A stretch of 46,088 nt of DNA from Candidatus Woesearchaeota archaeon (GCA_002686855.1 NYYQ01000007.1:1-46088); one strand, 5' to 3'. Numbered from the stretch's first letter, positions 14,470-45,939 are shown. Notes: a model not told the origin generated them from the letters alone. Program-made: numbers and translations.

Positions 14470-14925
14470 CTACAATATCTTATATCTTTGATAATTTTCA
14501 TTCATTAATAAGTCTTTTGCAATATTAATTGCTCTGCCTTCCTTATCAATCTCAGAATCAAAATACATTGTCCATATGATTCCCTTTTCCAATTTTTTAA
14601 TATTTTTAAAATTCAATCTTTCTTTCAACATGTTCAACAACTCATTATCCTTTTCCAAATTTTCTATTAAAATATTTATTTTATTTCCTTGTTCATTGTT
14701 CTCTAATAAAAATGAAAATTTATTTTTATTGGCATTAACCAGGACATCCACTTTACCTATTTTCTTCTCAAAGCTTTTTTTATCCCCTGAAAATCCAAAT
14801 TTATAGTAATCTTGCTTTTCCAGATTCTTTAGATGATGATAGCCCATCCTATGCAGTGTATGAAATGCTGTTATAGCTACATTATCCGGAACTTTCAAAC
14901 TGACAAATAATTCTGTTATTGGCAT
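14470..14925 (-). CDS. purS: double-length PurS-like protein
   Basis: Position in the purL-purQ cluster; VSLKVPDNVAITAFHTLHRMGY and C-terminal LLMNENYQRYKIL resemble PurS; about twice normal PurS length. Confidence 0.5.
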   Translation of the reverse strand: MPITELFVSLKVPDNVAITAFHTLHRMGYHHLKNLEKQDYYKFGFSGDKKSFEKKIGKVDVLVNANKNKFSFLLENNEQGNKINILIENLEKDNELLNMLKERLNFKNIKKLEKGIIWTMYFDSEIDKEGRAINIAKDLLMNENYQRYKIL

Positions 14926-14940
14926 TTTGATTTATCTTTT

Positions 14941-15134
14941 AATTATTTTTTTGGCATTTTTTATTTATTGATTTATCATTAAAATTTAGATTATTATCCA
15001 TTGTTTTTATTATTGGAAAATATTTATTGTTGTTTTCTTTTTTATTGATTATTTTTTATTTAATGATCTATTATCATAATTTTTAACTGGATTATTTTTA
15101 TTGATAAATTTTATTATTGGAACTTTTTTATTGC
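14941..15134. repeat. AT-rich degenerate TTATTGAT/TTATTGG repeat tract
   Basis: Many copies of ttattgat / ttattattgg; exact 15-mer ttattgataaatttt (15098-15112) also at 29511-29525. Confidence 0.6.
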
Positions 15135-15908
15135 CTATTTATTTTTAATAATATATCTTTTCATAGACTCAAAAATCCTGATATTATTTGTTTTTTGATC
15201 TGTTTTTTTGCTTCCAGGAATTTGCCTTTTCCAGATAGCACGTTCAGGATGTGGCATCATAGCCATAATATTCCCTTCTTTACTGCAAATAGCAGCTATA
15301 TTCAGCATAGAGCCATTTGGGTTTGTTGGAAACTTATCCTCAATTTTCCCTTCTTCATTGCAATACTGAAAAATAATTTGTTTATTTTTTATTAATTGCT
15401 TAACTAAAGCTTTATCCTTTGTTACAAATCTTCCCTCTCCATGCGCAATTGGCAATTTTAAAACTTCATTTTTATCTAAATCAGTAAAAGCAGCTCTTTT
15501 TTTATTCTGAATACTTTTAATATTGACCCAAACATTATAATAACCGGAAACAAAAGGATTTTTATTAGGAGCCAAAGCAAACTCAACCTTATCCTTTAAG
15601 CCAGGAACCATCCCCGTTTCCACTAAAACTTGGGCGCCATTGCATATTCCCAAAACTGGCTTTCCTTTTCTTGATTCTTCTTTAATTATATTCATGACAG
15701 GATCTTTTGCTGCTATAACTCCTGCCCTTATCCTGTCCTCATAAGCCCATCCACCCGGAATTACATAGCCATCAAAATCCGATAAATATTCTTTAGTATT
15801 CCACCTAAGGATTTTGCCATCCATTCCAGCAGCTTTTACAGCTTCTAAAGTTTCCACTTCGCAATTATTCCCGGGAAAGTATATGACTGCTATATTTGGT
15901 TTTGTCAT
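15135..15908 (-). CDS. purQ: FGAM synthase glutaminase subunit
   Basis: VLGICNGAQVL catalytic Cys, AHGEGRF, MPHPER motifs. Confidence 0.9.
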   Translation of the reverse strand: MTKPNIAVIYFPGNNCEVETLEAVKAAGMDGKILRWNTKEYLSDFDGYVIPGGWAYEDRIRAGVIAAKDPVMNIIKEESRKGKPVLGICNGAQVLVETGMVPGLKDKVEFALAPNKNPFVSGYYNVWVNIKSIQNKKRAAFTDLDKNEVLKLPIAHGEGRFVTKDKALVKQLIKNKQIIFQYCNEEGKIEDKFPTNPNGSMLNIAAICSKEGNIMAMMPHPERAIWKRQIPGSKKTDQKTNNIRIFESMKRYIIKNK

Positions 15909-16737: not shown

Positions 16738-19077
16738 TTAACTCAAAACCTCCGCAAAACCACTTGTCCAAGGCCTTTTTATTTCATTTATTTTCAAATC
16801 AATTATTTTATCATCATTTTTTTTAATTGTTAATGTTTTTTTATTGGTTGTTTTTCCCAATTGAATCATTTCAATATTATGTTTTTTGAAAATATTCTTT
16901 ACTTTATTCACATTCTTATTTTCAACTTCAAAAACAAAACCAGAGCTTTCTGAAAACAAAGCCTTGTCATTCCTTAAATTGCTAAAACCAATATCAATCT
17001 CAACTCCAATAGTGCCATCAGCATTTCCCCCTAAAATCATCTCAGAAACTGTTGCAACTAAACCACCATCGCTTATATCATGGCAGCTTAATAACAAGCC
17101 TTTATCAACAGAATCAATAACAGCATAAATCATATTTTTTTCTTTTTGAAAATCAATTTTTGGGACATTTTTTCCAACCTGTTTATTAATATCATAATAA
17201 ACACTTCCACCTAATTCGTCTTTTCTTTCTCCAACCAAGAATAAAGCGCTGTTTTCTTTTTTTAGCTTCATTGTTATAGCTTTGGAATAATCATCCATAA
17301 CTCCAACACAAGCTATTATCGGGCTTGGATCAATTGCCTTTCCCTTATTACTCTCATTATAAAAACTAACATTTCCTGAGACAATAGGAACTGGATTTTT
17401 TGTTTTGTAATAGTTAATTTTGCTGGCAGCATCTTTGATTCCCCTAACTGCTTCTTTAAAGTCATAGAACTCCTCTGGTTTTTCAGGATTTCCAAAGCAT
17501 AAGCAATCAGTTAAAGCAGAAGGTATAGCGCCAATAGCTGCTATATTACGCATAGATTCTGCAACAGCATTTACAGCTCCTAAGTAAGGGTCAATCCTCC
17601 CATATTTTGGATTGTTATCAACAGCTAAAGCAATTCCATACTTGCCTTTTGCTTTAATTAATCCAGCATCTGCTTGTCCAGGCTCTATAATGCCAGTGCC
17701 CATAACATTTTTATCATAATGATTAAAGCACTTTGCTTTTGAAGCAACAGCAGGGTTTGAAAGAACTTTCAACAAAACATCATTGTAATCTTTTTTTTCT
17801 TTTATAATTGGCTCCTTAAAATTCCTTTTTGGTTTTTTAGCTGCCCTGTCATAACTTATTCCAGAAGTTACAGCTTTAATTGGAGCATTACAAACAACCT
17901 GGCCTTTGTGCTTAACAACATAATTTTTTTCATCTGTCACTTGCCCAATTACAACGGCTCTTGCATTCTTTGCAATATTAGATAATTCAAAATCCTTATT
18001 GTATATTTTCAATATAGTTGGAGTAAATTCCTTTGGACTTATCCAGGTAAATCTTTCTTGTGTCTCAGAACATGCTATGATATATGACGGTAAATCTTTC
18101 ATAGAAACATGCACATTATCCAAATCAAGCTCGCAACCATAATCTGCCGCACTACACAACTCAGAACTAGCGCACATTATGCCACCAGCTCCCATATCCT
18201 TAAATCCTAACCCCACATTTTGTTTTTTAGCCTCATTAAAAACCTCATAAGTTGCTCTAATTAAAACATTTTTTAAAAAAGGATCTGGCACTTGCACTGC
18301 ACCTCTGTTGCTTTCTTCTGCTTCTTCATCTAAAATTAAGGATGCGAAAGCAGCCCCTCCAAAACCAGAATTATCTGTAGGTTTTCCGACAATTATGATG
18401 TCATAGCCATCAGCATTCTTTGGAGCATAACTATGGATAATATCTTTCTCTTTCAAAATACCTAAACAAACAACATTTACCAGACAATTATCATCAAAGC
18501 TTTCATTAAAATAAACATCTCCAGCTAGATTTGGTATACCGACAGCATTTCCATAGCCTGCTATGCCATCAATAACCTCATTTGCAATATACTTTACCTT
18601 GTTTTTATTCTTTCCATCAGGATTTCCAAATCTTAATGGGTCTGCAGTACCAATAATCTTCGCTCCCATGCACAGAACATCTCTAAGAATTCCTCCAATG
18701 CCGGTAGCAGCCCCTTCATACGGCACAACCTGGCTAGGGTGGTTATGGCTTTCGTGGCTCATAACTATACCGTACTTTTCTCCATCTATTGTTCCTAACT
18801 CAACAACACCAGAATCTTCTATTGGCCCTAAAATAACATTGGGTGCTTTAGTTGGCAAAGTTTTAAGCACTTTTCTAGAGCTTTTATATGAACTATGCTC
18901 TGACCATTGTATGTTAAAAATATTCAGCTCTGTTAAGGTTGGATTTCTGCCGATTAACTTTACTATCTTTTTTGCCTCATTTGTTTTCAGAGAAATAGCA
19001 TTTTTCTTCAGAAAATCCTGCAGCATTCTATTTGACATGCCTTTTACATCAACCAGCTCTGTATCAACCATCCCCAT
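16738..19077 (-). CDS. purL: FGAM synthase II (small PurL)
   Basis: QWSEHSSYKSS, ESHNHPS, 779 aa AIR-synthase-related duplicated architecture. Confidence 0.9.
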   Translation of the reverse strand: MGMVDTELVDVKGMSNRMLQDFLKKNAISLKTNEAKKIVKLIGRNPTLTELNIFNIQWSEHSSYKSSRKVLKTLPTKAPNVILGPIEDSGVVELGTIDGEKYGIVMSHESHNHPSQVVPYEGAATGIGGILRDVLCMGAKIIGTADPLRFGNPDGKNKNKVKYIANEVIDGIAGYGNAVGIPNLAGDVYFNESFDDNCLVNVVCLGILKEKDIIHSYAPKNADGYDIIIVGKPTDNSGFGGAAFASLILDEEAEESNRGAVQVPDPFLKNVLIRATYEVFNEAKKQNVGLGFKDMGAGGIMCASSELCSAADYGCELDLDNVHVSMKDLPSYIIACSETQERFTWISPKEFTPTILKIYNKDFELSNIAKNARAVVIGQVTDEKNYVVKHKGQVVCNAPIKAVTSGISYDRAAKKPKRNFKEPIIKEKKDYNDVLLKVLSNPAVASKAKCFNHYDKNVMGTGIIEPGQADAGLIKAKGKYGIALAVDNNPKYGRIDPYLGAVNAVAESMRNIAAIGAIPSALTDCLCFGNPEKPEEFYDFKEAVRGIKDAASKINYYKTKNPVPIVSGNVSFYNESNKGKAIDPSPIIACVGVMDDYSKAITMKLKKENSALFLVGERKDELGGSVYYDINKQVGKNVPKIDFQKEKNMIYAVIDSVDKGLLLSCHDISDGGLVATVSEMILGGNADGTIGVEIDIGFSNLRNDKALFSESSGFVFEVENKNVNKVKNIFKKHNIEMIQLGKTTNKKTLTIKKNDDKIIDLKINEIKRPWTSGFAEVLS

Positions 19078-21400: not shown

Positions 21401-21919
21401 ATGGAAAGAGAAGCTATTACATTACCAAAATTAACTATAGATCAATTAGTAGAATTAGGAGCCGACCATGATAGTATGGTTACTCCCACTAGTAGTATCT
21501 ATGAAATTGATCCACTAGCAACACAACTAGGAACTAGAATTAAGGAAAAACTTAGTGATGGAACAATACAAGACAGAAAAAGACTCCTAAGAGTACTTCC
21601 AAGAATAGCTAATGAAGTGATTCAAAATGCAATTGAACATGGTAATGAGTTAGATCCTTCAAAACAAATTCATGCTTATTTTCTTTGGCAAGAGCATGGT
21701 TCTGGTAATGCATTGATGTATATTGCTGTACAAGATGAAGGCAAAGGCTTTGATGTAAATAGATATAGACTAAAAAATCCTAAACATGGTGGAGAAGCGC
21801 TGCCTTGGGCAAGAGAAATGTTTGATCATATTTATAATTTTGGAGATCCTGCAGTTTACATGGCTCAAGTCATAAGAAGAGATGGTGCAAAACCAATTGT
21901 AGTGGAAAAAGGTAGCTAA
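21401..21919 (+). CDS. stand-alone GHKL/HATPase_c-like protein (anti-sigma-factor-kinase-like)
   Basis: N-box EVIQNAIEHGN and G1-like VQDEGKGFD; TATA TTTATAAAGG about 25 nt before ATG 21401. Confidence 0.5.
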   Translation: MEREAITLPKLTIDQLVELGADHDSMVTPTSSIYEIDPLATQLGTRIKEKLSDGTIQDRKRLLRVLPRIANEVIQNAIEHGNELDPSKQIHAYFLWQEHGSGNALMYIAVQDEGKGFDVNRYRLKNPKHGGEALPWAREMFDHIYNFGDPAVYMAQVIRRDGAKPIVVEKGS

Positions 21920-23108
21920 ATAACCTCCCCAACCAGATAAATAGAGCCAGCAACAACAACTAAATCTCTTTTCCCTGCATTTTTTTTTGCATATTCTAAA
22001 GCTTTTTTTGAATTTTTAATAATAATTGAATTTTTAAAATATTTTTTTATATCTTTTATTTTGGCTGCTCTTTCATTATTTGCTTCTGTCAATATAATTT
22101 TATCCGCTTTTATTATCTTTGATATAGCTTTAACATCTTTATCTTTAGAAAAACCCAAAACCGCAATTAACTTATTGTATCTTAGATTTTTTAATTCATG
22201 AAATAAACCCCTAAATCCAGCTGGATTATGGGCAACATCAATCAACACATTCTTCCTCAATTCAAACCTTCCAGGCCATTTTACATTCTTTAATCCATTT
22301 TTTATATCCTTTTTATTAATTTTAATTCTTTTATTTTCATTTAGAATTTCCAATGCTTTTATTGCAATTGCTGCATTTATTAATTGAAAATTTCCTTTCA
22401 GGCCTGATTTTATATTTTCATCATTGTTTTTTTCATTTATTGATGTTTTTTCATTTTTTAATGGCGCCATTATTCTTGAATTTTTTTTAATGGCTATTTT
22501 TTTATTGTTTTCAAAGCAACACCTTTTGCTCCTGTTACAACCGGAACATTATTTTTTATTATTCCTGCTTTCTCATAGGCAATCTTTCTTAAACTATTGC
22601 CTAAAAACTTCTTATGCTCATGCGCAACATTGGTTATGATTGAAATCAACGGTCTAATAACATTAGTCGAGTCCAGTCTTCCACCCATTCCCGTCTCCAA
22701 AACAACAAAATCAACCTTTTTATCATAAAAATAAAGAAACATCATAGAGGTTGTTATCTCAAAAAAACTTTGGTTTGTAGCATGTTTTTTAACTTTAAGA
22801 TAATATTCAACTATCTCTTTGTCAGTAATTAATTTATCATTTATCCTGATCCTTTCATTGAATTTCTTTAAATGGGGGCTTGTATACATCCCAACATTAT
22901 ATCCAGCCTCTTGCAGTATAGAAGAGATCATAGCGCAAACAGAACCCTTTCCATTAGTCCCAGCAACATGAATGTACTTTAGCTTTTTTTCTGGATTGCC
23001 TAATTTCTTAAGAAGTAACTTCATATTTTTTAATCCTAATTTAAACTTCCATTCAGGCATACCATAAAGTTCTTCCAACACTTTGTTATAGTTCATAAGG
23101 AAAAGCAA
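21916..23108 (-). pseudogene. folC: folylpolyglutamate/dihydrofolate synthase interrupted by a frameshift at an A7 run
   Basis: N-part 22494..23108 (HVAGTNGKGSV P-loop), C-part 21916..22470 (NFQLINAAIAIKALEIL, PGRFE). One extra A in the run at 22497-22503 gives a continuous ...TIKKIAIKKNSRIMAPLK... Confidence 0.75.
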
Positions 23109-23192
23109 ACGTAAAGAAATTATAAATCTATTGATATTCTCAAATATTGAAAACCAAAAACCTTAAAAAACAAATTTATTTTCTTGATATTT

Positions 23193-23726
23193 ATGCCAAA
23201 ACCAGAAACATTAGAAGAACAACCATGTGCTTTTTGTCACAAGAAAACTTTGTCCCTAACAGAAGAGAATATAGAAATTCCTTATTTTGGAAAGGTAGCT
23301 TTATTCTCAATGACATGCTCTAACTGCAAATATCATAAATCTGATATAGAGGCTTTGGAAAAAAAAGAGCCATCTAAATACACTTTTGAGATTTCCTTAG
23401 AAAAGGATATGAAAGTCAGAATAGTAAAAAGCTCAGAAGCCACAGTTAAAATTCCCCATATAACAACTATTAGCCCGGGACCAGCTTCCCAGGGATTTAT
23501 AACAAACATAGAAGGAATATTAAACAGAGTTAAGCATCAGCTGGAAAGCGCAAGAGATGATTCTGAAGATAATTCAGATAAGAAAAAAGCAAAAAACTTG
23601 TTAAAGAAAATAACAAGAATAATGTGGGGCCAGGAAAAACAAAAGATAATTTTAGAGGATCCTTCCGGTAATAGCGCAATAATATCAGATAAAGCTGAGA
23701 AAACTAAATTAAAAGTAAAAAAATAA
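23193..23726 (+). CDS. ZPR1-type zinc-finger protein
   Basis: CAFCHKK...CSNCKYH C4 finger followed by GFITNIEGIL ZPR1 beta-domain motif. Confidence 0.75.
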   Translation: MPKPETLEEQPCAFCHKKTLSLTEENIEIPYFGKVALFSMTCSNCKYHKSDIEALEKKEPSKYTFEISLEKDMKVRIVKSSEATVKIPHITTISPGPASQGFITNIEGILNRVKHQLESARDDSEDNSDKKKAKNLLKKITRIMWGQEKQKIILEDPSGNSAIISDKAEKTKLKVKK

Positions 23727-23840
23727 TTATGATGTTGCAGCTTCAACAGTTTCTTTCTCAAGACCAGCTTCCTTTCTTAGAGTGTCTGCCATGTCAGTTT
23801 TCTCCCATGTAAACTCGGACTCTGCAGATTGACTCCTTCC
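23727..23840 (-). pseudogene. remnant of a metK C-terminus ([37 protein letters not shown])
   Basis: A 19-aa block, [19 protein letters not shown], is identical to intact MetK (27155..). At least 10 nt differences in it are all synonymous. An in-frame TAG lies upstream at 23841-23843. Confidence 0.7.
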
Positions 23841-24049
23841 CTATAACTTAATTAGTTAGCTAGTATACATACTTTATGGGAGAAAAAGTCAGATTGTGCA
23901 GGTTTCAAAATGATGAAGATTTATGGTAGATTGTTTCCCAATATTATCTGTGCAACAAAGCAATGAAAAAAGTCTTTTAAAATAATGTTAGCATTAATTA
24001 GTGATTACTATTGGAAAACCTTTTAAAACCAATATATATCCTAATAATT

Positions 24050-26953
24050 ATGGAGTTAGAAAGGATAGTGCATAACATTAACTGGGAAGAAATTCACTCA
24101 CATACTTCTGCAGATTTTGATTCAGATTCATTATTCGGAGAAGAACCCAAAGAATATAATGGATTTAAAAAATCTCTAAAAACTTTAGATGCTGGTTTGT
24201 TTAAAAGAAGCAAATTATATAGAATATTGAATGATGCCTTTGATGAAGACATAAATTTTTCTTTAGAAAGAGATGGGGTTTTTGAAGTTACATCCGGTTC
24301 AAATAAAATAGGAACACTTACTTTTAGTGATGTGGGTTATGAAGTGAATTACTTAGGACTGATTGGACCTGAACAAGAAGCAACTAGTTCTCATTGCGCT
24401 AAAGACGTTGATACTGATGAGACTCCTTTTGCTTTAAATGATATATATTCGATGGCTGTTCTGCATTTTAATCTAAAAAAACTTGGAAAAATTTCAGATT
24501 TTAAAACTCAAGAAAAAATCTTAGATGTTTTTGATAGTTCTCGGGAAATAAGTGCATTTTATGCTAATGACCTAGTAAATTTAGCTAAAATTGCAGAAAA
24601 CGTTGGTACTGAAACATTTAGCGAAATAGTTACCGGGTTAGGGGAATATATTGCTTCTGATTGGGCAGTTTATTCCCTATACCAGGTGACGAGTCCTGAA
24701 AATTATTTTGGTTCACATTTCGATCTTGAAAATTTAGACTGGGATTTACTAGTCAAAGTAGCTACATTGCCAGATAGGATTCAAGGAAGTCAAATGAATC
24801 TAAAAAATCCAGTTGAAGTAAACCATCCTGAATTAAATGAAGATGATTCACCTGCATTTACTCCTTTAGAAATAATTCTCAATTTGAATGATTTAAAGGA
24901 TATGCCATCTGAAATAAGAAACAGATCTATAGAAATTTTTAGAAATTTTTTAGAAAGAGATTTTTATAAACAGACTTTCTATCAAGGCTTTTCTTATTTT
25001 ATGAAACAAAGATTAAATCTAGATAATGAGGTAATATTGTCTGGCTATCTTGATTTTATAGAAGGATTAACTAAATATGAAAATTCCAAGATTGAGCCAA
25101 TACTCACTGCACTTTATAATAATCCAAGAACAATAAATATAATTAAGTCATTAAGTGAAGAATTTGAACCGGAAACACATCAGGAAAAAATTGATGAATG
25201 TCTTTCTTTATTGACAAGCCATGATTTCGCCAATAAACTTATCTTCTTAGATGAAAATTTATCTTTTAATTATGAATCTCCTACGGATAAATTAGATTAT
25301 ATTATTGCATGTATTCAAAGTGCGGTAAGAGATCCAGATATATCTGAAGATGATCCAATTAATTATCCTGACAAAATTTTAAGATTCATTGGTGAAGCTA
25401 AGAAATACGGGCCAAATGTTACTAGAACTTTATTATCCTGCCTTTATTCAGATAGAAGGACTATGGAGGCAAATGATTTTTTACAACAATATGTTACTAG
25501 CGAGGATGTCAATATTTCAATAAAAGCAACAGATTTATTTAAAGCACTTGGTGAAAAAAGTAAGAATAAAGATGAAAAATGGAATTTTGTTTTAGGTAAA
25601 TTGAGATCAACTGATAAAGGACTTTCTGAAGAAGATTTGGATTATCTTATAATTAAATGCAAATTTATTAATAAGGGTTTTGAGGGCTTAATTGGTAATG
25701 ATGGAGAAGGGATTAGTTCAATCAGACGCGTTTTATCTGAACAACTTGGAGCTAAGTATGCTGGAGGCAAATTGGTTGAATTGCCATATTACGATTTATT
25801 TGGATTGACAATCGCAACTGGACAAGTTATAAATGAATTTGATAAAAATGTAAATTATTTAATGGGGCAAGCAATAAAATACGGTTCAATACCTAACTTT
25901 TTAAGAAAAGATCCTAATGCATCAAGAGTTATTGGGATGTTAGAAGATCATGGGTATGATCCTTCTTTTTTTGTAAGCAGCGGAACATTAATTAATTTTA
26001 GCAAGAGGACAGATGGGCATGCAAGACGATGGGAAGATTCCCTCAAAAGCCTGGTGTCTCTTTATACAGGAGAAAATGGAGAAGATCCAAAAGTTTCTAT
26101 CCATAAATTTTCCCCAAAAACTGCCTTAAGGGCGATTTCAGAAAGTTATCCTGCTGCCTTGCGTGGAGATAAGGATGCTGCTAAAAAAGTAGTCAATTAC
26201 TTTTTAAGTGAAGTAAATAAAAGGATAGAAAAAATTGGAAGAACTCCAGCATTAGAAGAAGTTACCGATAGGTTTGATGGATTGCTTGGCCAGATCGATG
26301 GGATTAACTTAGAATTATCAGAACACATTGAAGCAAGAATTTGGGAACGAAATGTTCCTGAATGCTTTTATGATAATCACAGATTGAGTTGCTGTGTTTT
26401 TTTCCCAAAAGGTGCAGAAAAATATAGCATACCTCTTATGACTATGGATCCACAAACCAGCATAATAGAATATTGGGTAGGGGGAATGGATGAATTTGCA
26501 GGTGTTTCTACTCTATTTGCAGGAAAAAATAAAACATTGTTGATGGACACTTGGGAAGCTGGCGAAGCTGTCTATTCTGTTTTGAGCAGTAAACAAACCA
26601 GGAAATTTGCATTAGATTCAATAGTTCTTGCTACAGACAGGGCAATTGTGGGTCCTTCTGAAGATAAAACTTTAATAATTCATAATTGCACCTATGGAAG
26701 ACCATTAGAATTAGTTGCTTATGTTAGGGAACTTTCTTCAAGGTCAGATTCGATAAGGTTTGAAGAAAAAAGGCATTTTGAATTAGTAGATGGAAATGGA
26801 ATTGCATTAAAAAATTCCCAATCAGAAAGAGAAACTCATGGCTCAGGAGCTTTTAGGTCAAAAAAAATGATAGGCCACATTCCAGTATTTGCAGTAAATG
26901 TAGGAATGTACAAGCAAGAATTCTTGCCTAATGTCAGGAAAAAAGCTGCATAA
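24050..26953 (+). CDS. large hypothetical protein (about 967 aa ORFan)
   Basis: Uninterrupted long ORF, acidic, no TM or known motif recognised; ATG 24050 preferred to TTG 24011. Confidence 0.6.
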   Translation: MELERIVHNINWEEIHSHTSADFDSDSLFGEEPKEYNGFKKSLKTLDAGLFKRSKLYRILNDAFDEDINFSLERDGVFEVTSGSNKIGTLTFSDVGYEVNYLGLIGPEQEATSSHCAKDVDTDETPFALNDIYSMAVLHFNLKKLGKISDFKTQEKILDVFDSSREISAFYANDLVNLAKIAENVGTETFSEIVTGLGEYIASDWAVYSLYQVTSPENYFGSHFDLENLDWDLLVKVATLPDRIQGSQMNLKNPVEVNHPELNEDDSPAFTPLEIILNLNDLKDMPSEIRNRSIEIFRNFLERDFYKQTFYQGFSYFMKQRLNLDNEVILSGYLDFIEGLTKYENSKIEPILTALYNNPRTINIIKSLSEEFEPETHQEKIDECLSLLTSHDFANKLIFLDENLSFNYESPTDKLDYIIACIQSAVRDPDISEDDPINYPDKILRFIGEAKKYGPNVTRTLLSCLYSDRRTMEANDFLQQYVTSEDVNISIKATDLFKALGEKSKNKDEKWNFVLGKLRSTDKGLSEEDLDYLIIKCKFINKGFEGLIGNDGEGISSIRRVLSEQLGAKYAGGKLVELPYYDLFGLTIATGQVINEFDKNVNYLMGQAIKYGSIPNFLRKDPNASRVIGMLEDHGYDPSFFVSSGTLINFSKRTDGHARRWEDSLKSLVSLYTGENGEDPKVSIHKFSPKTALRAISESYPAALRGDKDAAKKVVNYFLSEVNKRIEKIGRTPALEEVTDRFDGLLGQIDGINLELSEHIEARIWERNVPECFYDNHRLSCCVFFPKGAEKYSIPLMTMDPQTSIIEYWVGGMDEFAGVSTLFAGKNKTLLMDTWEAGEAVYSVLSSKQTRKFALDSIVLATDRAIVGPSEDKTLIIHNCTYGRPLELVAYVRELSSRSDSIRFEEKRHFELVDGNGIALKNSQSERETHGSGAFRSKKMIGHIPVFAVNVGMYKQEFLPNVRKKAA

Positions 26954-27154
26954 TTAAATAAAATAAAAAAATTATTTGACAGCTTTCTTTAATTCATCAA
27001 CTTTGTCTACGGACTCTGCTCAATGAAATTTCAAAATTTTACTCAAAATTATCTTATTATACAAATAAGTAAACTTTGCTTAAAAATTTGGTATAACAAA
27101 CGTAATACAAAACTGCAAGAAGAAGTCAATTTTTCAAACGGAAAATAAAAAAAA

Positions 27155-28363
27155 TTAAGCCTTTACCTCGGACTCAATCTCTTTCTTGACGGCAGTTTGC
27201 TCAAGCCCTGCCTCTTTGCGCAGGGTGTCTGCCATATCTGTTTTCTCCCAGGTAAAGTCCTTATCTTCCCTGCCAAAATGCCCATAAGCTGCAGTCTTTT
27301 GGAAAATGGGTCTTTTAAGGTCCAGATTTTTTACAATAGCTTTTGGCCTTAGGTCAAATACTTTGTTAACAGCCTCAACAATTTTTTCTTCCTTGACTTT
27401 TGAGGTTCCGAAAGTGTCTACGTTAACGGAAGTTGGTTTTGAGATTCCAATAGAATAACTTAGCTGGACTTCACACTTTTCTGCGAGATCTGCTGCCACA
27501 ACATTTTTTGCTACATACCTTGCCATGTATGCGCCAGACCTGTCAACTTTTGATGAATCCTTTCCTGAGAAAGCCCCACCACCATGCCTTCCAAGGCCTC
27601 CGTAAGTATCTACAACAATTTTCCTTCCTGTAAGTCCAGAATCACCGTGCGGACCGCCAATAACAAATTTTCCGGTTGCATTTATGTAAATTTTTGTATT
27701 GTCATCAATCCAATCTCCGCAAACATCATCTATGACTTTTTCCCTTATTTCCTCTCTCAATTCTTCTTCAGAAACTGTCTCAAGGTGTTGTTGAGCTATA
27801 ACAATGGCAGTAATTTTTTTTGGCTTGCCATCCTCATACTTAACAGAAACTTGGGATTTTCCATCAGGACCAAGTTGCTTAATAGCTCCAGACCTTCTTA
27901 CTTCTGCAAGCTTTGCAGTTAATTTGTGAGCCATGATAATCGGGAATGGCATAAGCTCAGGAGTTTCCTTGCATGCAAAACCAAACATCATTCCCTGGTC
28001 ACCAGCTCCCTGATCAAGATCATCTCCAGAGCCTTCATCCACTCCCTGAGCAATATCAGCAGATTGTTCGTGCAAAGCGCTCCATACTCCACAGTCTTCA
28101 TGATGAATTCCAAACCTAGCATCAGTATAGCCAATTTTTTCCAAAGTTTTTCTTACTAATTTTTGTATGTCAACATAAGCTTTGGTTCTTGCTTCTCCTG
28201 CAACATGCACTGAGCCAGTAGTAGTTAAGCATTCAGCTGCGCATCTTGATTCTGGGTCTTGTCTTAACATTTCATCAAGAATAGCATCACTTATCTGGTC
28301 ACAAATCTTATCCGGATGACCTTCTGTCACACTTTCAGATGTAAAAAATTCAACTTTTACCAT
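27155..28363 (-). CDS. metK: S-adenosylmethionine synthetase, bacterial/eukaryotic type
   Basis: [35 protein letters not shown] motifs; GAGGTG SD before ATG 28363. Confidence 0.9.
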
Positions 28364-33267: not shown

Positions 33268-33897
33268 TTATCTTATACTGTTAAGAATTGAGATTATATC
33301 CTTAACTTGTTTCTTGGAATGATCTAAATCTTTGCTGTTATCAACAACAAAACCAGCCCTTTTTATTTTCCCTCTTAATGGCATCTGAGATTTAATTATC
33401 TGCTCAATCTCTTTTTTTGAATATTTTTTATTTTTTAATAATCGTTTTATTTGTTCTTTTTTACTGCATTTAACCACAATTATTTTATCAACCAGCTTTT
33501 GCGCTTTAGCTTCTATAAGCAATGGAGCATCAATTATTATTTTATTTTTATTTTTTATTTTTAATAAGTTTTTTTCATTAATTTTTTTATTCATTGTTTT
33601 TCTCTTATAATGTTTTTTTATTTTATTGATTTCTTTTTTTATTGATTTTATTATAATTGGGTGTGTTATTACATTTAATCTCTTTAATTTCTTATAATCC
33701 TTAAAAACAATTTTTTTAATTTTATCCCTGTTTAATGTTTTAAATTCTTCTAAAATTTTTTTCCTCAATGGTTTTTCATTTTCATACAAACCATGATATA
33801 ATTTATCTGCATTAATGACCCTAAAACCATGTTTCTTAAACATATTTGCAACAGTTGTTTTTCCTGATCCAAAGCTTCCTGTTATTCCGATTATCAT
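33268..33897 (-). CDS. coaE: dephospho-CoA kinase, bacterial type, with K-rich insertion
   Basis: IIGITGSFGSGKTTV P-loop, VINADKL, IIDAPLLIE; insertion encoded by the AT-rich repeat (about 33540-33660). Confidence 0.75.
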   Translation of the reverse strand: MIIGITGSFGSGKTTVANMFKKHGFRVINADKLYHGLYENEKPLRKKILEEFKTLNRDKIKKIVFKDYKKLKRLNVITHPIIIKSIKKEINKIKKHYKRKTMNKKINEKNLLKIKNKNKIIIDAPLLIEAKAQKLVDKIIVVKCSKKEQIKRLLKNKKYSKKEIEQIIKSQMPLRGKIKRAGFVVDNSKDLDHSKKQVKDIISILNSIR

Positions 33898-37820: not shown

Positions 37821-37884
37821 ATTCAATTAAAAAATAAATCAATAAAATTTTTCAATAATAAAATATAATTAAAAAAACAATAAA

Positions 37885-38499
37885 ATGGGAACAATTTATG
37901 ACTGCGATCCAGCTGAACTTATAGAAAAAGCATCTGGAGAATTGAAAAAGGTTGAGGCAGTAAAAGCGCCAACATGGGCAGTTTTTGTAAAAACTGGTGT
38001 CCATAAGGAAAGGCCGCCTTTTAGGAATGACTGGTGGCACACAAGAACAGCTTCTGTTTTAAGGCAGGTTTACATTAAAGGTCCAATTGGAGTTTCAAAA
38101 TTAAGAAATAAATACGGCGGAAAGAAAAACAGAGGGGTGAAAAAATCACATTTCTATAAAGGTTCTGGAAGTATTATAAGAAAAATCCTGCAGCAGCTGG
38201 AAAAAGCAGGTTTTGTTAAAAAAGAAGATTCTGGAGTGCATAAGGGAAAAGTAATAACAAAAGAAGGAAAACAATTTTTAGATAGTATTGCATCAACAAT
38301 ATCAATTCAAATTCAAACACCAAAAAAGGAAGCAAAACCAGCTAAAGAGAAAGCGGCTAAGGAAGAAACAAAGCCAATTAAAGAAAAACAAGAAAAGAAA
38401 AAAGAAATAAGCCAAAAAACAAAAATCGAAATAAAAGAAAAAACAATAAAAGAAACCAAAGAAGAAGAAGCAAAAACTGAGCCTGAGAAAAAACAATAA
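37885..38499 (+). CDS. rps19e: 30S ribosomal protein eS19 with K/E-rich C-terminal extension
   Basis: APTWAVFVKTGVHKERPP..DWWHTRTASVLRQVY..GVSKLRNKYGG; about 55 extra K/E-rich residues. Confidence 0.85.
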   Translation: MGTIYDCDPAELIEKASGELKKVEAVKAPTWAVFVKTGVHKERPPFRNDWWHTRTASVLRQVYIKGPIGVSKLRNKYGGKKNRGVKKSHFYKGSGSIIRKILQQLEKAGFVKKEDSGVHKGKVITKEGKQFLDSIASTISIQIQTPKKEAKPAKEKAAKEETKPIKEKQEKKKEISQKTKIEIKEKTIKETKEEEAKTEPEKKQ

Positions 38500-45797: not shown

Positions 45798-45939
45798 AAA
45801 TTTAATGAAAAAGATAACACTGATAAAAATAAATGCCAATAATTAATAAAAAACATCAATAACTGAAAAAACAAAGCCAATTAAAAAACAATTCAATTTA
45901 AAAATCAAAAAATTATATTCAATAAAAACCTTGAAACAA

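What the first reader, a model, noticed from the sequence alone, without database searches (positions are those of the whole stretch)
23727..27175. Displaced metK C-terminal remnant with purely synonymous divergence, separated from intact metK by a ~970-aa ORFan
At 23727-23840 (minus) is an open 37-codon fragment, [37 protein letters not shown], preceded by a TAG. Its 19-aa core is identical to intact MetK (27155..), yet at least 10 nt differ and all are synonymous. Examples are aca/acc, act/aca, gac/gat, cta/ctg, aga/cgc and gct/gca. The remnant uses AT-rich codons like the host, while the intact gene uses G+C-richer codons like the rest of this bacterial-type metK. This suggests the resident metK end was displaced when a foreign segment (ORFan alone, or ORFan plus a new metK) recombined in. 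A 10-mer, cggactctgc, occurs at 23816-25 and 27010-19, and ctcggactc occurs at 23814-22 and inside the metK tail at 27167-75. These are possible recombination cores, but the evidence is weak.
Basis: partly seen in the sequence, partly recalled or inferred. Interest (0 to 1): 0.8.

Follow-up and report, generated by a model that had tools for sequence, protein, structure and literature searches.

The report
Stacked insertions replacing the metK tail
In this marine Woesearchaeota genome, mobile DNA has inserted at least twice into the last 30 codons of the essential metK gene, each time supplying a new gene end and leaving the old end behind, as prophage e14 does at icd in E. coli.

Summary
At 23813-23757 (-) a 19-codon stretch encodes the same peptide as intact MetK (27256-27200). 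The two differ at 11 bases, all synonymous; 0 of 200,000 random-substitution trials kept the peptide.

The metK body is native: it has host-like GC3 (0.28), clade-I Woesearchaeota relatives and conserved synteny. Only its last 33 codons ("tail A", GC3 0.58) are foreign.

It matches the functional tail of the closest syntenic relative.

Relatives L089, L091 and L095 have metK and ZPR1 tail to tail, 5-32 nt apart, which is the empty site. In L093, a metK 96.6% identical to an unoccupied allele switches tail within the FTWEKTD codons. It is followed by DNA homologous to the window's 27154-27023 spacer and by a tyrosine integrase gene.

Best reading: serial site-specific integration at a conserved metK core. 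This is a known kind of event (e14/icd-icdC; thaumarchaeal elements in gene 3' ends), here in DPANN archaea. The 967-aa protein is cargo with a GNAT-like C-terminal fold. No integrase lies in the window.

The parts
23193..23726 (+). ZPR1 gene (177 aa), the ancestral convergent neighbour of metK
   Evidence: Pfam jr-ZPR1 4.9e-22 and Zn_ribbon_ZPR1. It is adjacent to metK, tail to tail, in L089, L091, L095 and L162.
23727..23813 (-). Displaced metK tail C: [28 protein letters not shown] plus stop. It abuts the ZPR1 stop codon with no gap.
   Evidence: The 19 aa are identical to intact MetK, with 11 synonymous differences. The same peptide is the native tail of clade-II MetK proteins P0030, P0119 and P0133.
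23814..23834 (-).
   Evidence: Related arms precede the remnants in L001 (AGTCAATCCGCTGAATCCGAG) and L162 (AGTCTATCCGAAAAGTCAGAG). No MetK homologue has a SQSAESE-like loop.
23835..24049 (+). Upstream region of the cargo gene. The part from about 23953 travels with the gene in another genomic context (L002).
   Evidence: L002 homology to the window runs 23953-26956; L001 homology runs 23532-26953.
24050..26953 (+). Cargo gene, 967 aa (the 'ORFan'). The N-terminal 580 aa have no relatives beyond two proteins; the C-terminal ~380 aa form a conserved domain with a GNAT-like fold.
   Evidence: Only P0002 (76%) and P0003 (73%) match full length. No Pfam or PADLOC hit, and only weak PHROGs hits of unknown function (E 0.0036 and 0.27). 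The profile search found 41 representative proteins over residues ~600-960. The AF2 model has pLDDT 82. The Foldseek top 50 PDB hits are all GNAT acetyltransferases, E 3e-3 to 0.14.
26954..26971 (.). 18 nt between the cargo stop and the tail B stop. Possibly a vestige of a ZPR1 3' end (TTA TTTTATTTAA on the minus strand, 5 nt after the tail B stop, as in L091). Too short and A+T-rich to prove.
   Evidence: In L001 a clear 14-codon ZPR1 tail remnant (TDKAEKAKLKVKAQ*) follows the cargo stop directly.
26972..27007 (-). Displaced metK tail B: DKVDELKKAVK plus stop. This is a second remnant, lacking the FTWEKT codons.
   Evidence: 96.7% identity over 30 nt to the L091 metK tail (E 5e-7) and 86% over 43 nt to L162, including the stop and the T-run. 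It has 6 differences from the functional L162 tail, all at third positions and synonymous.
27008..27022 (-). Arm 2, TGAGCAGAGTCCGTA: the second copy of the 10-mer, abutting tail B.
27023..27154 (-). Spacer after the working metK stop, homologous to the DNA that follows metK in L093 (the integrase-bearing contig).
   Evidence: The blastn alignment L093 16-1316 = window 28366-27067 runs past the stop. A spacer-only local alignment scores 86, against a maximum of 54 in 2000 shuffles and 45 in 2210 control segments. Pairwise alignment.
27155..27256 (-). Tail A: the working last 33 codons of metK ([33 protein letters not shown] plus stop), supplied by the insert.
   Evidence: GC3 is 0.58 against 0.28 in the body. 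It is a clade-II type tail on a clade-I body. It is homologous along its length to the L093 tail.
27257..28363 (-). Native metK body (clade-I Woesearchaeota, bacterial-type MAT)
   Evidence: Pfam S-AdoMet_synt N, M and C domains. Identity is 86-88% to P0005, P0010 and P0008. GC3 is host-like.

Best explanation
The 3' end of metK, at the conserved codons for FTWEKTD (TTTACNTGGGARAARACNGAY), is an attachment site for a family of integrating elements in marine Woesearchaeota. Each element carries its own copy of the metK tail. Recombination at the core joins that tail in frame to the host gene, so MetK stays intact. The previous tail is pushed to the far end of the insert, behind an element-derived arm (consensus AGTCWATCYG..RARTCMGAG). 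The window shows two such events stacked. The older insert (about 27007-23814) carries tail B, a possible ZPR1-end vestige, the 967-aa cargo gene and arm 1; it displaced tail C, which still abuts ZPR1. The younger insert (27256-27008, 249 nt) carries only tail A, a 132-nt spacer and arm 2; it displaced tail B. Neither insert encodes a recombinase, so both are decayed or depend on an integrase supplied in trans. The related unit in L093 lies next to a tyrosine integrase gene. What is shown: the three tails and their positions, the chimeric gene, the empty sites, the shared arms, the occupied/empty pair L093/L161, and the integrase in L093. What is inferred: that the integrase catalyses these events, the exact crossover point, the order of the two events, and that the cargo gene arrived with tail B.
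For: (1) The synonymous-only divergence of C from A and of B from the working L162 tail shows that each tail evolved as part of a working gene in a separate lineage. (2) The working gene is chimeric exactly at the core. GC3 jumps from 0.28 to 0.58. The nearest bodies all carry DKVDELKK-type tails, whereas tail A is the type found on 70-74%-identical clade-II bodies. (3) Empty sites exist: metK and ZPR1 are 5-32 nt apart in L089/L090, L091 and L095. (4) There is an independent occupied/empty pair. The L093 and L161 metK bodies are 96.6% identical in DNA (99% in protein) up to ...TTTACYTGGGARAAGACRGATA and unrelated after it. L093 then has a PF00589 tyrosine integrase (E 3e-28) and two NikA-like genes. 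(5) Tail A plus the spacer is homologous to the L093 tail plus its following ~125-170 nt. In L093 this ends in an arm-like GAAAAAGTCTGGAAG|TTTAC. (6) The same 10-mer abuts both remnants in the window and occurs nowhere else in it. Related arms abut the remnant in L001 and a decayed arm + core + C-type tail in the 152-nt metK-ZPR1 gap of L162 (score 40.5, against maxima of 35.5 in shuffles and 36.5 in controls). (7) The L001 remnant is a decayed tail of a different natural type (P0138-like) from the window's C. Related cargo elements therefore entered different hosts. (8) The cargo gene is mobile: it has three different right-hand contexts that diverge right after its stop codon.
Against: There is no integrase in the 46-kb window, and no complete element with both ends and an integrase was recovered, because L093 ends at 4.3 kb. 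Tail B lacks the core codons, so a further ~20-nt deletion must be assumed. The younger insert is only 249 nt, which is odd for an integrating element unless it is a miniature or a scar. In L001 no metK tail is seen within 60 nt after the ZPR1 remnant, which fits an insertion through ZPR1-end homology better. In L002 the cargo gene sits with no metK or ZPR1 remnant. No variant of the window MetK with tail B or C is in the protein collection: the P0004 cluster has a single member sequence, so ongoing excision is not documented. A ZPR1-anchored scan of 66 metagenome loci found no further occupied site.
Confidence: 0.65

Rival explanations
1. Acquisition by homologous recombination without a site-specific recombinase. 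DNA from related Woesearchaeota, linear or a circle carrying a captured ZPR1-end/metK-end junction, recombined through the conserved metK and ZPR1 3' ends. The arms are simply conserved parts of the transferred segment.
For: In L001 a 14-codon ZPR1 tail remnant follows the cargo stop. The cargo is thus flanked by direct repeats of the ZPR1 end as well, as a Campbell-type crossover in a captured junction would give. The FTWEKTD codons are the most conserved DNA in the region and would favour homologous exchange. There is no integrase in the window. L008, if real, shows exchange of the whole metK body at the same point.
Against: The break falls within the same few bases in independent cases: window C, L001, L093/L161 and L162. 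The non-metK arm sequence abutting the core recurs with different tails and different cargo. An integrase gene sits beside the same kind of junction in L093. Homologous exchange alone would replace a tail, not stack three of them.
Confidence: 0.2
2. The tails are functional cassettes. The cell, or its elements, switches the MetK C-terminus among stored alternatives by recombination at the core, so the silent tails are kept by selection as spares.
For: Tail C is a perfect open copy of the clade-II consensus despite being silent, while the equivalent remnants in L001 and L162 have decayed. Tail B is also intact at the protein level. MetK tails are strikingly variable among close relatives.
Against: No alternative junctions are seen in at least six assemblies of this population; the exception, L008, changes the body and not the tail. 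Tail B has lost the core needed for switching. There is no recombinase nearby. A recent insertion explains the intact state equally well.
Confidence: 0.06
3. Local duplication of the metK end followed by divergence, or an assembly or binning chimera.
For: Direct repeats flanking an insert could in principle arise by duplication. L008 shows that chimeric joins at this repeat may occur in low-coverage assemblies.
Against: All 11 differences are synonymous and nearly every degenerate codon has changed, which a silent duplicate cannot produce. Composition differs between the copies. The three tails are of different natural types. The arrangement recurs in at least five independent assemblies.
Confidence: 0.03

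Closest known systems
Prophage e14 (and phage 21) in the E. coli icd gene, with the icdC pseudogene
   Same: The element integrates inside the 3' end of an essential metabolic gene and carries a replacement 3' end that differs mostly by synonymous changes. [quoted passage not shown]
   Different: e14 is a 15-kb prophage remnant with its own integrase. Here the host is a DPANN archaeon and the target is metK. The inserts are 0.25 and 3.2 kb without a recombinase, and two events are stacked, so three tails coexist.
[quoted passage not shown]
   Same: These are archaeal elements with tyrosine recombinases. Fourteen of 68 insertions lie in 3' ends of protein genes, with a new stop codon supplied by the element, and they were verified by empty-site comparison (PMC6563490).
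   Different: The phylum differs, metK is not among the reported targets (no occurrence of the term in the paper's main text), and att sites there are short. Here the element-borne segment is a full 28-33-codon tail.
ICESt1/ICESt3 and cis-mobilizable elements (CIMEs) at the 3' end of fda in Streptococcus thermophilus
   Same: Site-specific integration into the 3' end of a housekeeping gene. Elements accrete in tandem at one att site, including att-flanked units that lack recombination genes and depend on a partner element.
   Different: Those are bacterial conjugative elements. No conjugation module or second complete element is seen here, and trans-mobilization is only inferred.
Genomic islands in the 5' end of dusA
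   Same: An integrase family dedicated to one conserved protein-coding gene, with the element restoring the interrupted end (PMC4482086).
   Different: The 5' end rather than the 3' end is targeted, the hosts are bacteria, and an integrase is always present beside the junction.

Membership tests
Site-specific integrating element that replaces the 3' end of its target gene (e14/icd type) | The target gene stays intact because the insert supplies an in-frame 3' end of foreign origin | tested here: met
   The metK ORF is intact with all three Pfam domains. Tail A has GC3 0.58 against 0.28 and is of the clade-II type on a clade-I body.
Site-specific integrating element that replaces the 3' end of its target gene (e14/icd type) | The displaced 3' fragment lies at the far end of the insert, in direct orientation | tested here: met
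   Tail C lies at 23813-23727 and tail B at 27007-26972, both on the metK strand.
Site-specific integrating element that replaces the 3' end of its target gene (e14/icd type) | Unoccupied site in close relatives | tested here: met
   L089/L090, L091 and L095 have metK next to ZPR1. L161 is the empty allele of L093.
Site-specific integrating element that replaces the 3' end of its target gene (e14/icd type) | Integrase gene inside the insert | tested here: not met
   No PF00589 hit and no tblastn hit to the L093 integrase in the window. The feature is met only in the related locus L093. The window inserts are therefore filed as decayed or non-autonomous relatives, not as complete elements.
Site-specific integrating element that replaces the 3' end of its target gene (e14/icd type) | Precise, recurrent junction at one core sequence | tested here: met
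   Homology to metK starts at TTTAC in the window C remnant and in L001, and a decayed arm + core precedes the L162 remnant. L093 and L161 diverge within or just after the FTWEKTD codons. Tail B is an exception, since its core is deleted.
Site-specific integrating element that replaces the 3' end of its target gene (e14/icd type) | Excision and circular form | not testable with these tools
   This needs raw reads of the source samples.
SSV-type archaeal integrase elements (integrase gene split by integration) | The att site lies inside the integrase gene, which is split on integration | tested here: not met
   The L093 integrase is one intact 242-aa ORF covering PF00589 positions 7-169 of 172. 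The att core lies in metK.
Bacterial-type S-adenosylmethionine synthetase (MetK) | N, central and C-terminal MAT domains | tested here: met
   PF00438 5e-41, PF02772 3e-45 and PF02773 2e-70.
GNAT acyltransferases (for the cargo protein) | Sequence match to a GNAT profile | tested here: not met
   No Pfam family for the protein or for 7 of 8 homologues. One homologue carries a separate canonical GNAT domain after the shared domain.
GNAT acyltransferases (for the cargo protein) | GNAT fold | tested here: inconclusive
   The AF2 model has pLDDT 82. All 50 best PDB matches are GNAT enzymes, but E is 3e-3 to 0.14 and TM (target-normalised) is 0.24-0.63, mostly 0.4-0.55. The acetyl-CoA site was not examined.

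The most novel reading that the evidence does not exclude
The 249-nt unit tail A + spacer + arm (27256-27008) is a miniature mobile element that carries nothing but a replacement gene end and recombinase-binding arms. A homologous 276-nt unit in L093 is bounded by the same core at both ends. Such tail cassettes, and the single-gene cargo cassette next to one, would be moved in trans by integrases of larger elements. This would make the MetK C-terminus of Woesearchaeota a hot spot where tails are swapped between lineages, and silent tails would be kept usable by repeated excision.
Probability: 0.2. Interest if true: 0.65.

Novelty: new member of a known kind. Interest (0 to 1): 0.45.

Why it matters
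Very little is known about mobile elements of DPANN archaea, which have tiny genomes and depend on hosts. This locus gives a defined attachment site (the FTWEKTD codons of metK), a candidate integrase (L093) and recognisable arm sequences. Integrated elements and their cargo can therefore be searched for systematically in Woesearchaeota genomes. It also explains why MetK C-termini disagree with the phylogeny of the rest of the protein in this group, and it warns against reading such chimeric ends, or the leftover fragments, as whole-gene transfer or as new small genes. The phenomenon itself, 3'-end replacement by an integrating element, is well established elsewhere.

Tried and rejected
(1) The genome-contig scan with MetK was wasted. 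The conserved peptide DQGMMFGF hit bacteria of all kinds, and the 80 loci kept were mostly bacterial (Firmicutes and others), with a few unclassified archaeal MAGs at no more than 65% identity.

(2) Viral-contig scans gave nothing relevant. The one with the L093 integrase found nothing. The one with an arm + core pattern gave one chance hit in a phage ORF (KESEFTCD).

(3) The ZPR1-anchored metagenome scan returned 66 loci. metK is adjacent only in a small subclade, and no further occupied site was found. L116, with metK 9.6 kb from ZPR1, holds ordinary genes and no integrase.

(4) The full-length AF2 model of the cargo protein was useless (pLDDT 34). Only the C-terminal domain, modelled with a 13-sequence alignment, folded. 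A profile search of PDB sequences gave nothing.

(5) A search with the L008 MetK fragment found only short partial proteins and no full gene with tail A, so L008 stays unresolved.

(6) Rfam and the promoter/terminator scans of 23.0-28.6 kb found nothing above background.

(7) Rejected: the idea that SQSAESE before the remnant is part of an old MetK loop. None of about 240 MetK C-termini has it, and the same DNA precedes tails of different types.

(8) Rejected: tail B as simple vertical inheritance in place. L162 carries a decayed arm + C-type tail between its B-type working tail and ZPR1, which fits B being element-borne there too. This point remains the least certain.


Full report
**What the window is.** The 967/980-aa ORF is identical to a protein annotated in a Candidatus Woesearchaeota MAG from marine metagenomes. 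The same locus occurs, at 99.99-100% identity over shared lengths of 6.4-22.9 kb, in at least five further assemblies from ENA, JGI and Logan. The arrangement is therefore real and belongs to one marine population. The genome is A+T-rich (32% G+C).

**Checking the observation.**
- The minus strand 23840->23727 reads [37 protein letters not shown] after an in-frame TAG.
- Its 19-aa core (23813-23757) is identical to residues of the intact MetK encoded at 27256-27200.
- The two DNA stretches differ at 11 positions, all synonymous. Ten of the 17 degenerate codons differ, so synonymous divergence is large.
- None of 200,000 simulations with 11 random substitutions kept the peptide. Both copies therefore evolved as parts of working genes in separate lineages.

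The intact metK is not G+C-rich as a whole.
- Its body (370 codons) has GC3 0.28, within the range of neighbouring genes (0.19-0.32).
- Its last 33 codons, from the F of FTWEK to the stop, have GC3 0.58 (Fisher p = 6e-4). No 33-codon window in the body exceeds 0.42.
- The working gene is therefore a chimera that changes character exactly where the repeat begins. I call these 33 codons tail A.

**Phylogenetic discordance.**
- Among 120 MetK homologues, all from Woesearchaeota or Nanoarchaeota at 70-86% identity, the closest bodies are P0005, P0010 and P0008 at 86-88%. All of these end in ...FTWE..DKVDELKKAV....
- The peptide [19 protein letters not shown], and extensions like [14 protein letters not shown], belong to a more distant group (70-74% bodies; P0030, P0119, P0128, P0133).
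- The bacterial-type metK is therefore the ordinary metK of this archaeal group. The body is native, and only the tail is out of place.

**A second remnant.**
- On the minus strand, 27007-26972 reads DKVDELKKAVK*. This is the tail type expected for this body.
- It lies between the working gene and the large ORF.
- It matches the metK tail DNA of L091 at 96.7% over 30 nt (E 5e-7), and that of L162 at 86% over 43 nt, including the stop and the following T-run.
- It differs from the functional tail of L162 at six positions, all synonymous. I call it tail B.
- It lacks the FTWEKT codons.
These are the only two copies in 46 kb.

**The empty site.**
- In L089/L090 (MetK 86%), L091 (84%) and L095 (84%), metK and ZPR1 are convergent neighbours, with 10, 5 and 32 nt between the called genes or tblastn matches. 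The genes on the other side of metK (HTH-CBS, metallophosphoesterase, Rpb6, S17e) are those of the window.
- In the window tail C abuts the ZPR1 stop codon with no gap. Everything from 23814 to 27256 has therefore been inserted into the end of metK.

**An independent case with a recombinase.**
- The metK of L093 is 96.6% identical in DNA (99% in protein) to that of L161 up to ...TTTACYTGGGARAAGACRGATA. After that point the two are unrelated.
- L161 ends FTWEKTDKVDELKKLCS*. L093 ends [29 protein letters not shown].
- Downstream in L093 lie a 131-aa ORF, a tyrosine integrase (PF00589, E 3e-28), two NikA-like genes and an AsnC-type regulator, before the contig ends.
- The L093 tail and the ~125-170 nt after its stop are homologous to the window's tail A and its spacer 27154-27023. 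blastn runs through the stop. The spacer alone scores 86, against maxima of 54 in shuffles and 45 in controls.
- In L093 this stretch ends in GAAAAAGTCTGGAAG|TTTAC, which resembles the arms. The unit tail + spacer + arm (249 nt in the window, 276 nt in L093) is therefore shared by two hosts at the same site.

**More arms and remnants.**
- L001 carries a 76%-identical cargo protein. There the remnant next to ZPR1 reads FTCEKTDKAEVLRKEAGL*KSSAKKAVEREIEI*. This is a decayed copy of a different natural tail type (compare P0138), preceded by AGTCAATCCGCTGAATCCGAG.
- L162 is the relative with the most similar synteny (metK, ZPR1, FolC). Its working tail is of type B. The 152-nt gap before ZPR1 contains a decayed arm + core + C-type tail (score 40.5; no shuffle or control segment reaches it).
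- The same insert-side sequence therefore abuts displaced tails of different types in different hosts. A site-specific system would give this pattern.

**The cargo.**
- The large ORF most likely starts at ATG 24050 (967 aa).
- Its only full-length relatives are in L001 and L002. In L002 it has other neighbours and no remnants. In all three contigs similarity ends right after the stop codon.
- It has no Pfam or PADLOC match, and only weak PHROGs hits of unknown function.
- A profile search found 41 representative proteins sharing its C-terminal ~380 aa in varied architectures.
- That domain folds with pLDDT 82, and its 50 best PDB matches are all GNAT acetyltransferases, though with weak scores.
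- I regard it as cargo with a possible acyltransferase-like domain. Nothing suggests a recombinase.

**Most likely history.** The positions and junctions below are shown; the order and mechanism are inferred.
- An ancestor had metK ending in tail C next to ZPR1.
- An element carrying tail B, possibly a captured ZPR1-end vestige, the cargo gene and arm 1 integrated at the core.
- Later a small unit carrying tail A, the spacer and arm 2 integrated at the same core and displaced tail B, which then lost about 20 nt.
- Tail C is still a perfect copy, whereas the L001 and L162 remnants have decayed. The window's events are therefore recent, or the silent tails are reused through excision.
- No integrase is in the window, so the inserts are decayed or rely on a recombinase elsewhere.

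**Open points.**
- In L001 a 14-codon ZPR1 tail remnant follows the cargo stop, and no metK tail follows within 60 nt. This leaves room for integration through ZPR1-end homology.
- L008 joins window-identical DNA (22167-27256) to a clade-II metK body exactly at the core. It may be a recombinant or a low-coverage chimera.
- The exact crossover point and the role of the arm are not established.

**Comparison with what is known.**
- The closest match is e14/phage 21 at E. coli icd, where a replacement 3' end differs by synonymous changes and the icdC fragment remains (PMC13626634).
- In archaea, elements in the 3'-distal parts of protein genes are documented for Thaumarchaeota (PMC6563490).
- The window is a new instance of this kind, with a new host group and a new target. 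It also has an unusual stack of very small, recombinase-less inserts.

Noticed in passing
window 21916-23108 (-): The FolC/Mur-ligase-type gene is split into two ORFs (184 and 204 aa) in the window. In five other assemblies of the same population it is one 393-aa gene. The window differs from them by a single 1-bp indel, so this is a sequencing or assembly error or a strain-level frameshift.
   Followed up: partly
L008 5092-5240 (corresponds to window 27257 onward): One low-coverage contig is identical to the window over 22167-27256 and then continues with a clade-II metK body (58 of 148 bases differ). The break is exactly at the 5' edge of the FTWEK core. It is either a real recombinant or an assembly chimera through a shared k-mer.
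   Followed up: partly
window 24050-26953; proteins P0244-P0283: The C-terminal ~380 aa of the 'ORFan' define an uncharacterised family without a Pfam model, with about 40 representative clusters and lengths of 107-3319 aa. Conserved motifs include RL.CC.F.P.G and HHYTDAF. The predicted fold is GNAT-like, and one member (P0261) has an additional canonical GNAT domain.
   Followed up: partly
MetK homologues P0018-P0022, P0025, P0034, P0044, P0061, P0091, P0149: A subgroup of Woesearchaeota and Nanoarchaeota MetK proteins carries a Cys-rich, acidic C-terminal extension (...CGCTPxKCKxExxTEED...) after the FTWE helix. MetK C-termini in this group are generally far more variable than the enzyme body.
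   Followed up: no
window 14925-15156, and scattered sites 16788-16853, 22406-22507, 33534-33649, 37823-37885, 38380-38454, 45825-45874: Two overlapping ~115-nt direct copies offset by ~95 nt (72% identical) lie near 15.0 kb. There is also weak dispersed A+T-rich similarity among several sites of the window. This could be low-complexity coding sequence or a small repeat family.
   Followed up: no
L162 2066-2920: In the closest syntenic relative, a gene with an SLFN/AlbA_2 domain sits between ZPR1 and FolC, which are direct neighbours in the window. This is another small insertion or deletion difference at this locus.
   Followed up: no
L093 1107-1390: In the integrase-bearing contig, an arm-like sequence followed by TTTAC recurs about 150 nt after the metK stop, before the first element gene. 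The replacement tail + spacer + arm may therefore be a separate unit inserted in front of the integrase element, rather than that element's own end.
   Followed up: partly
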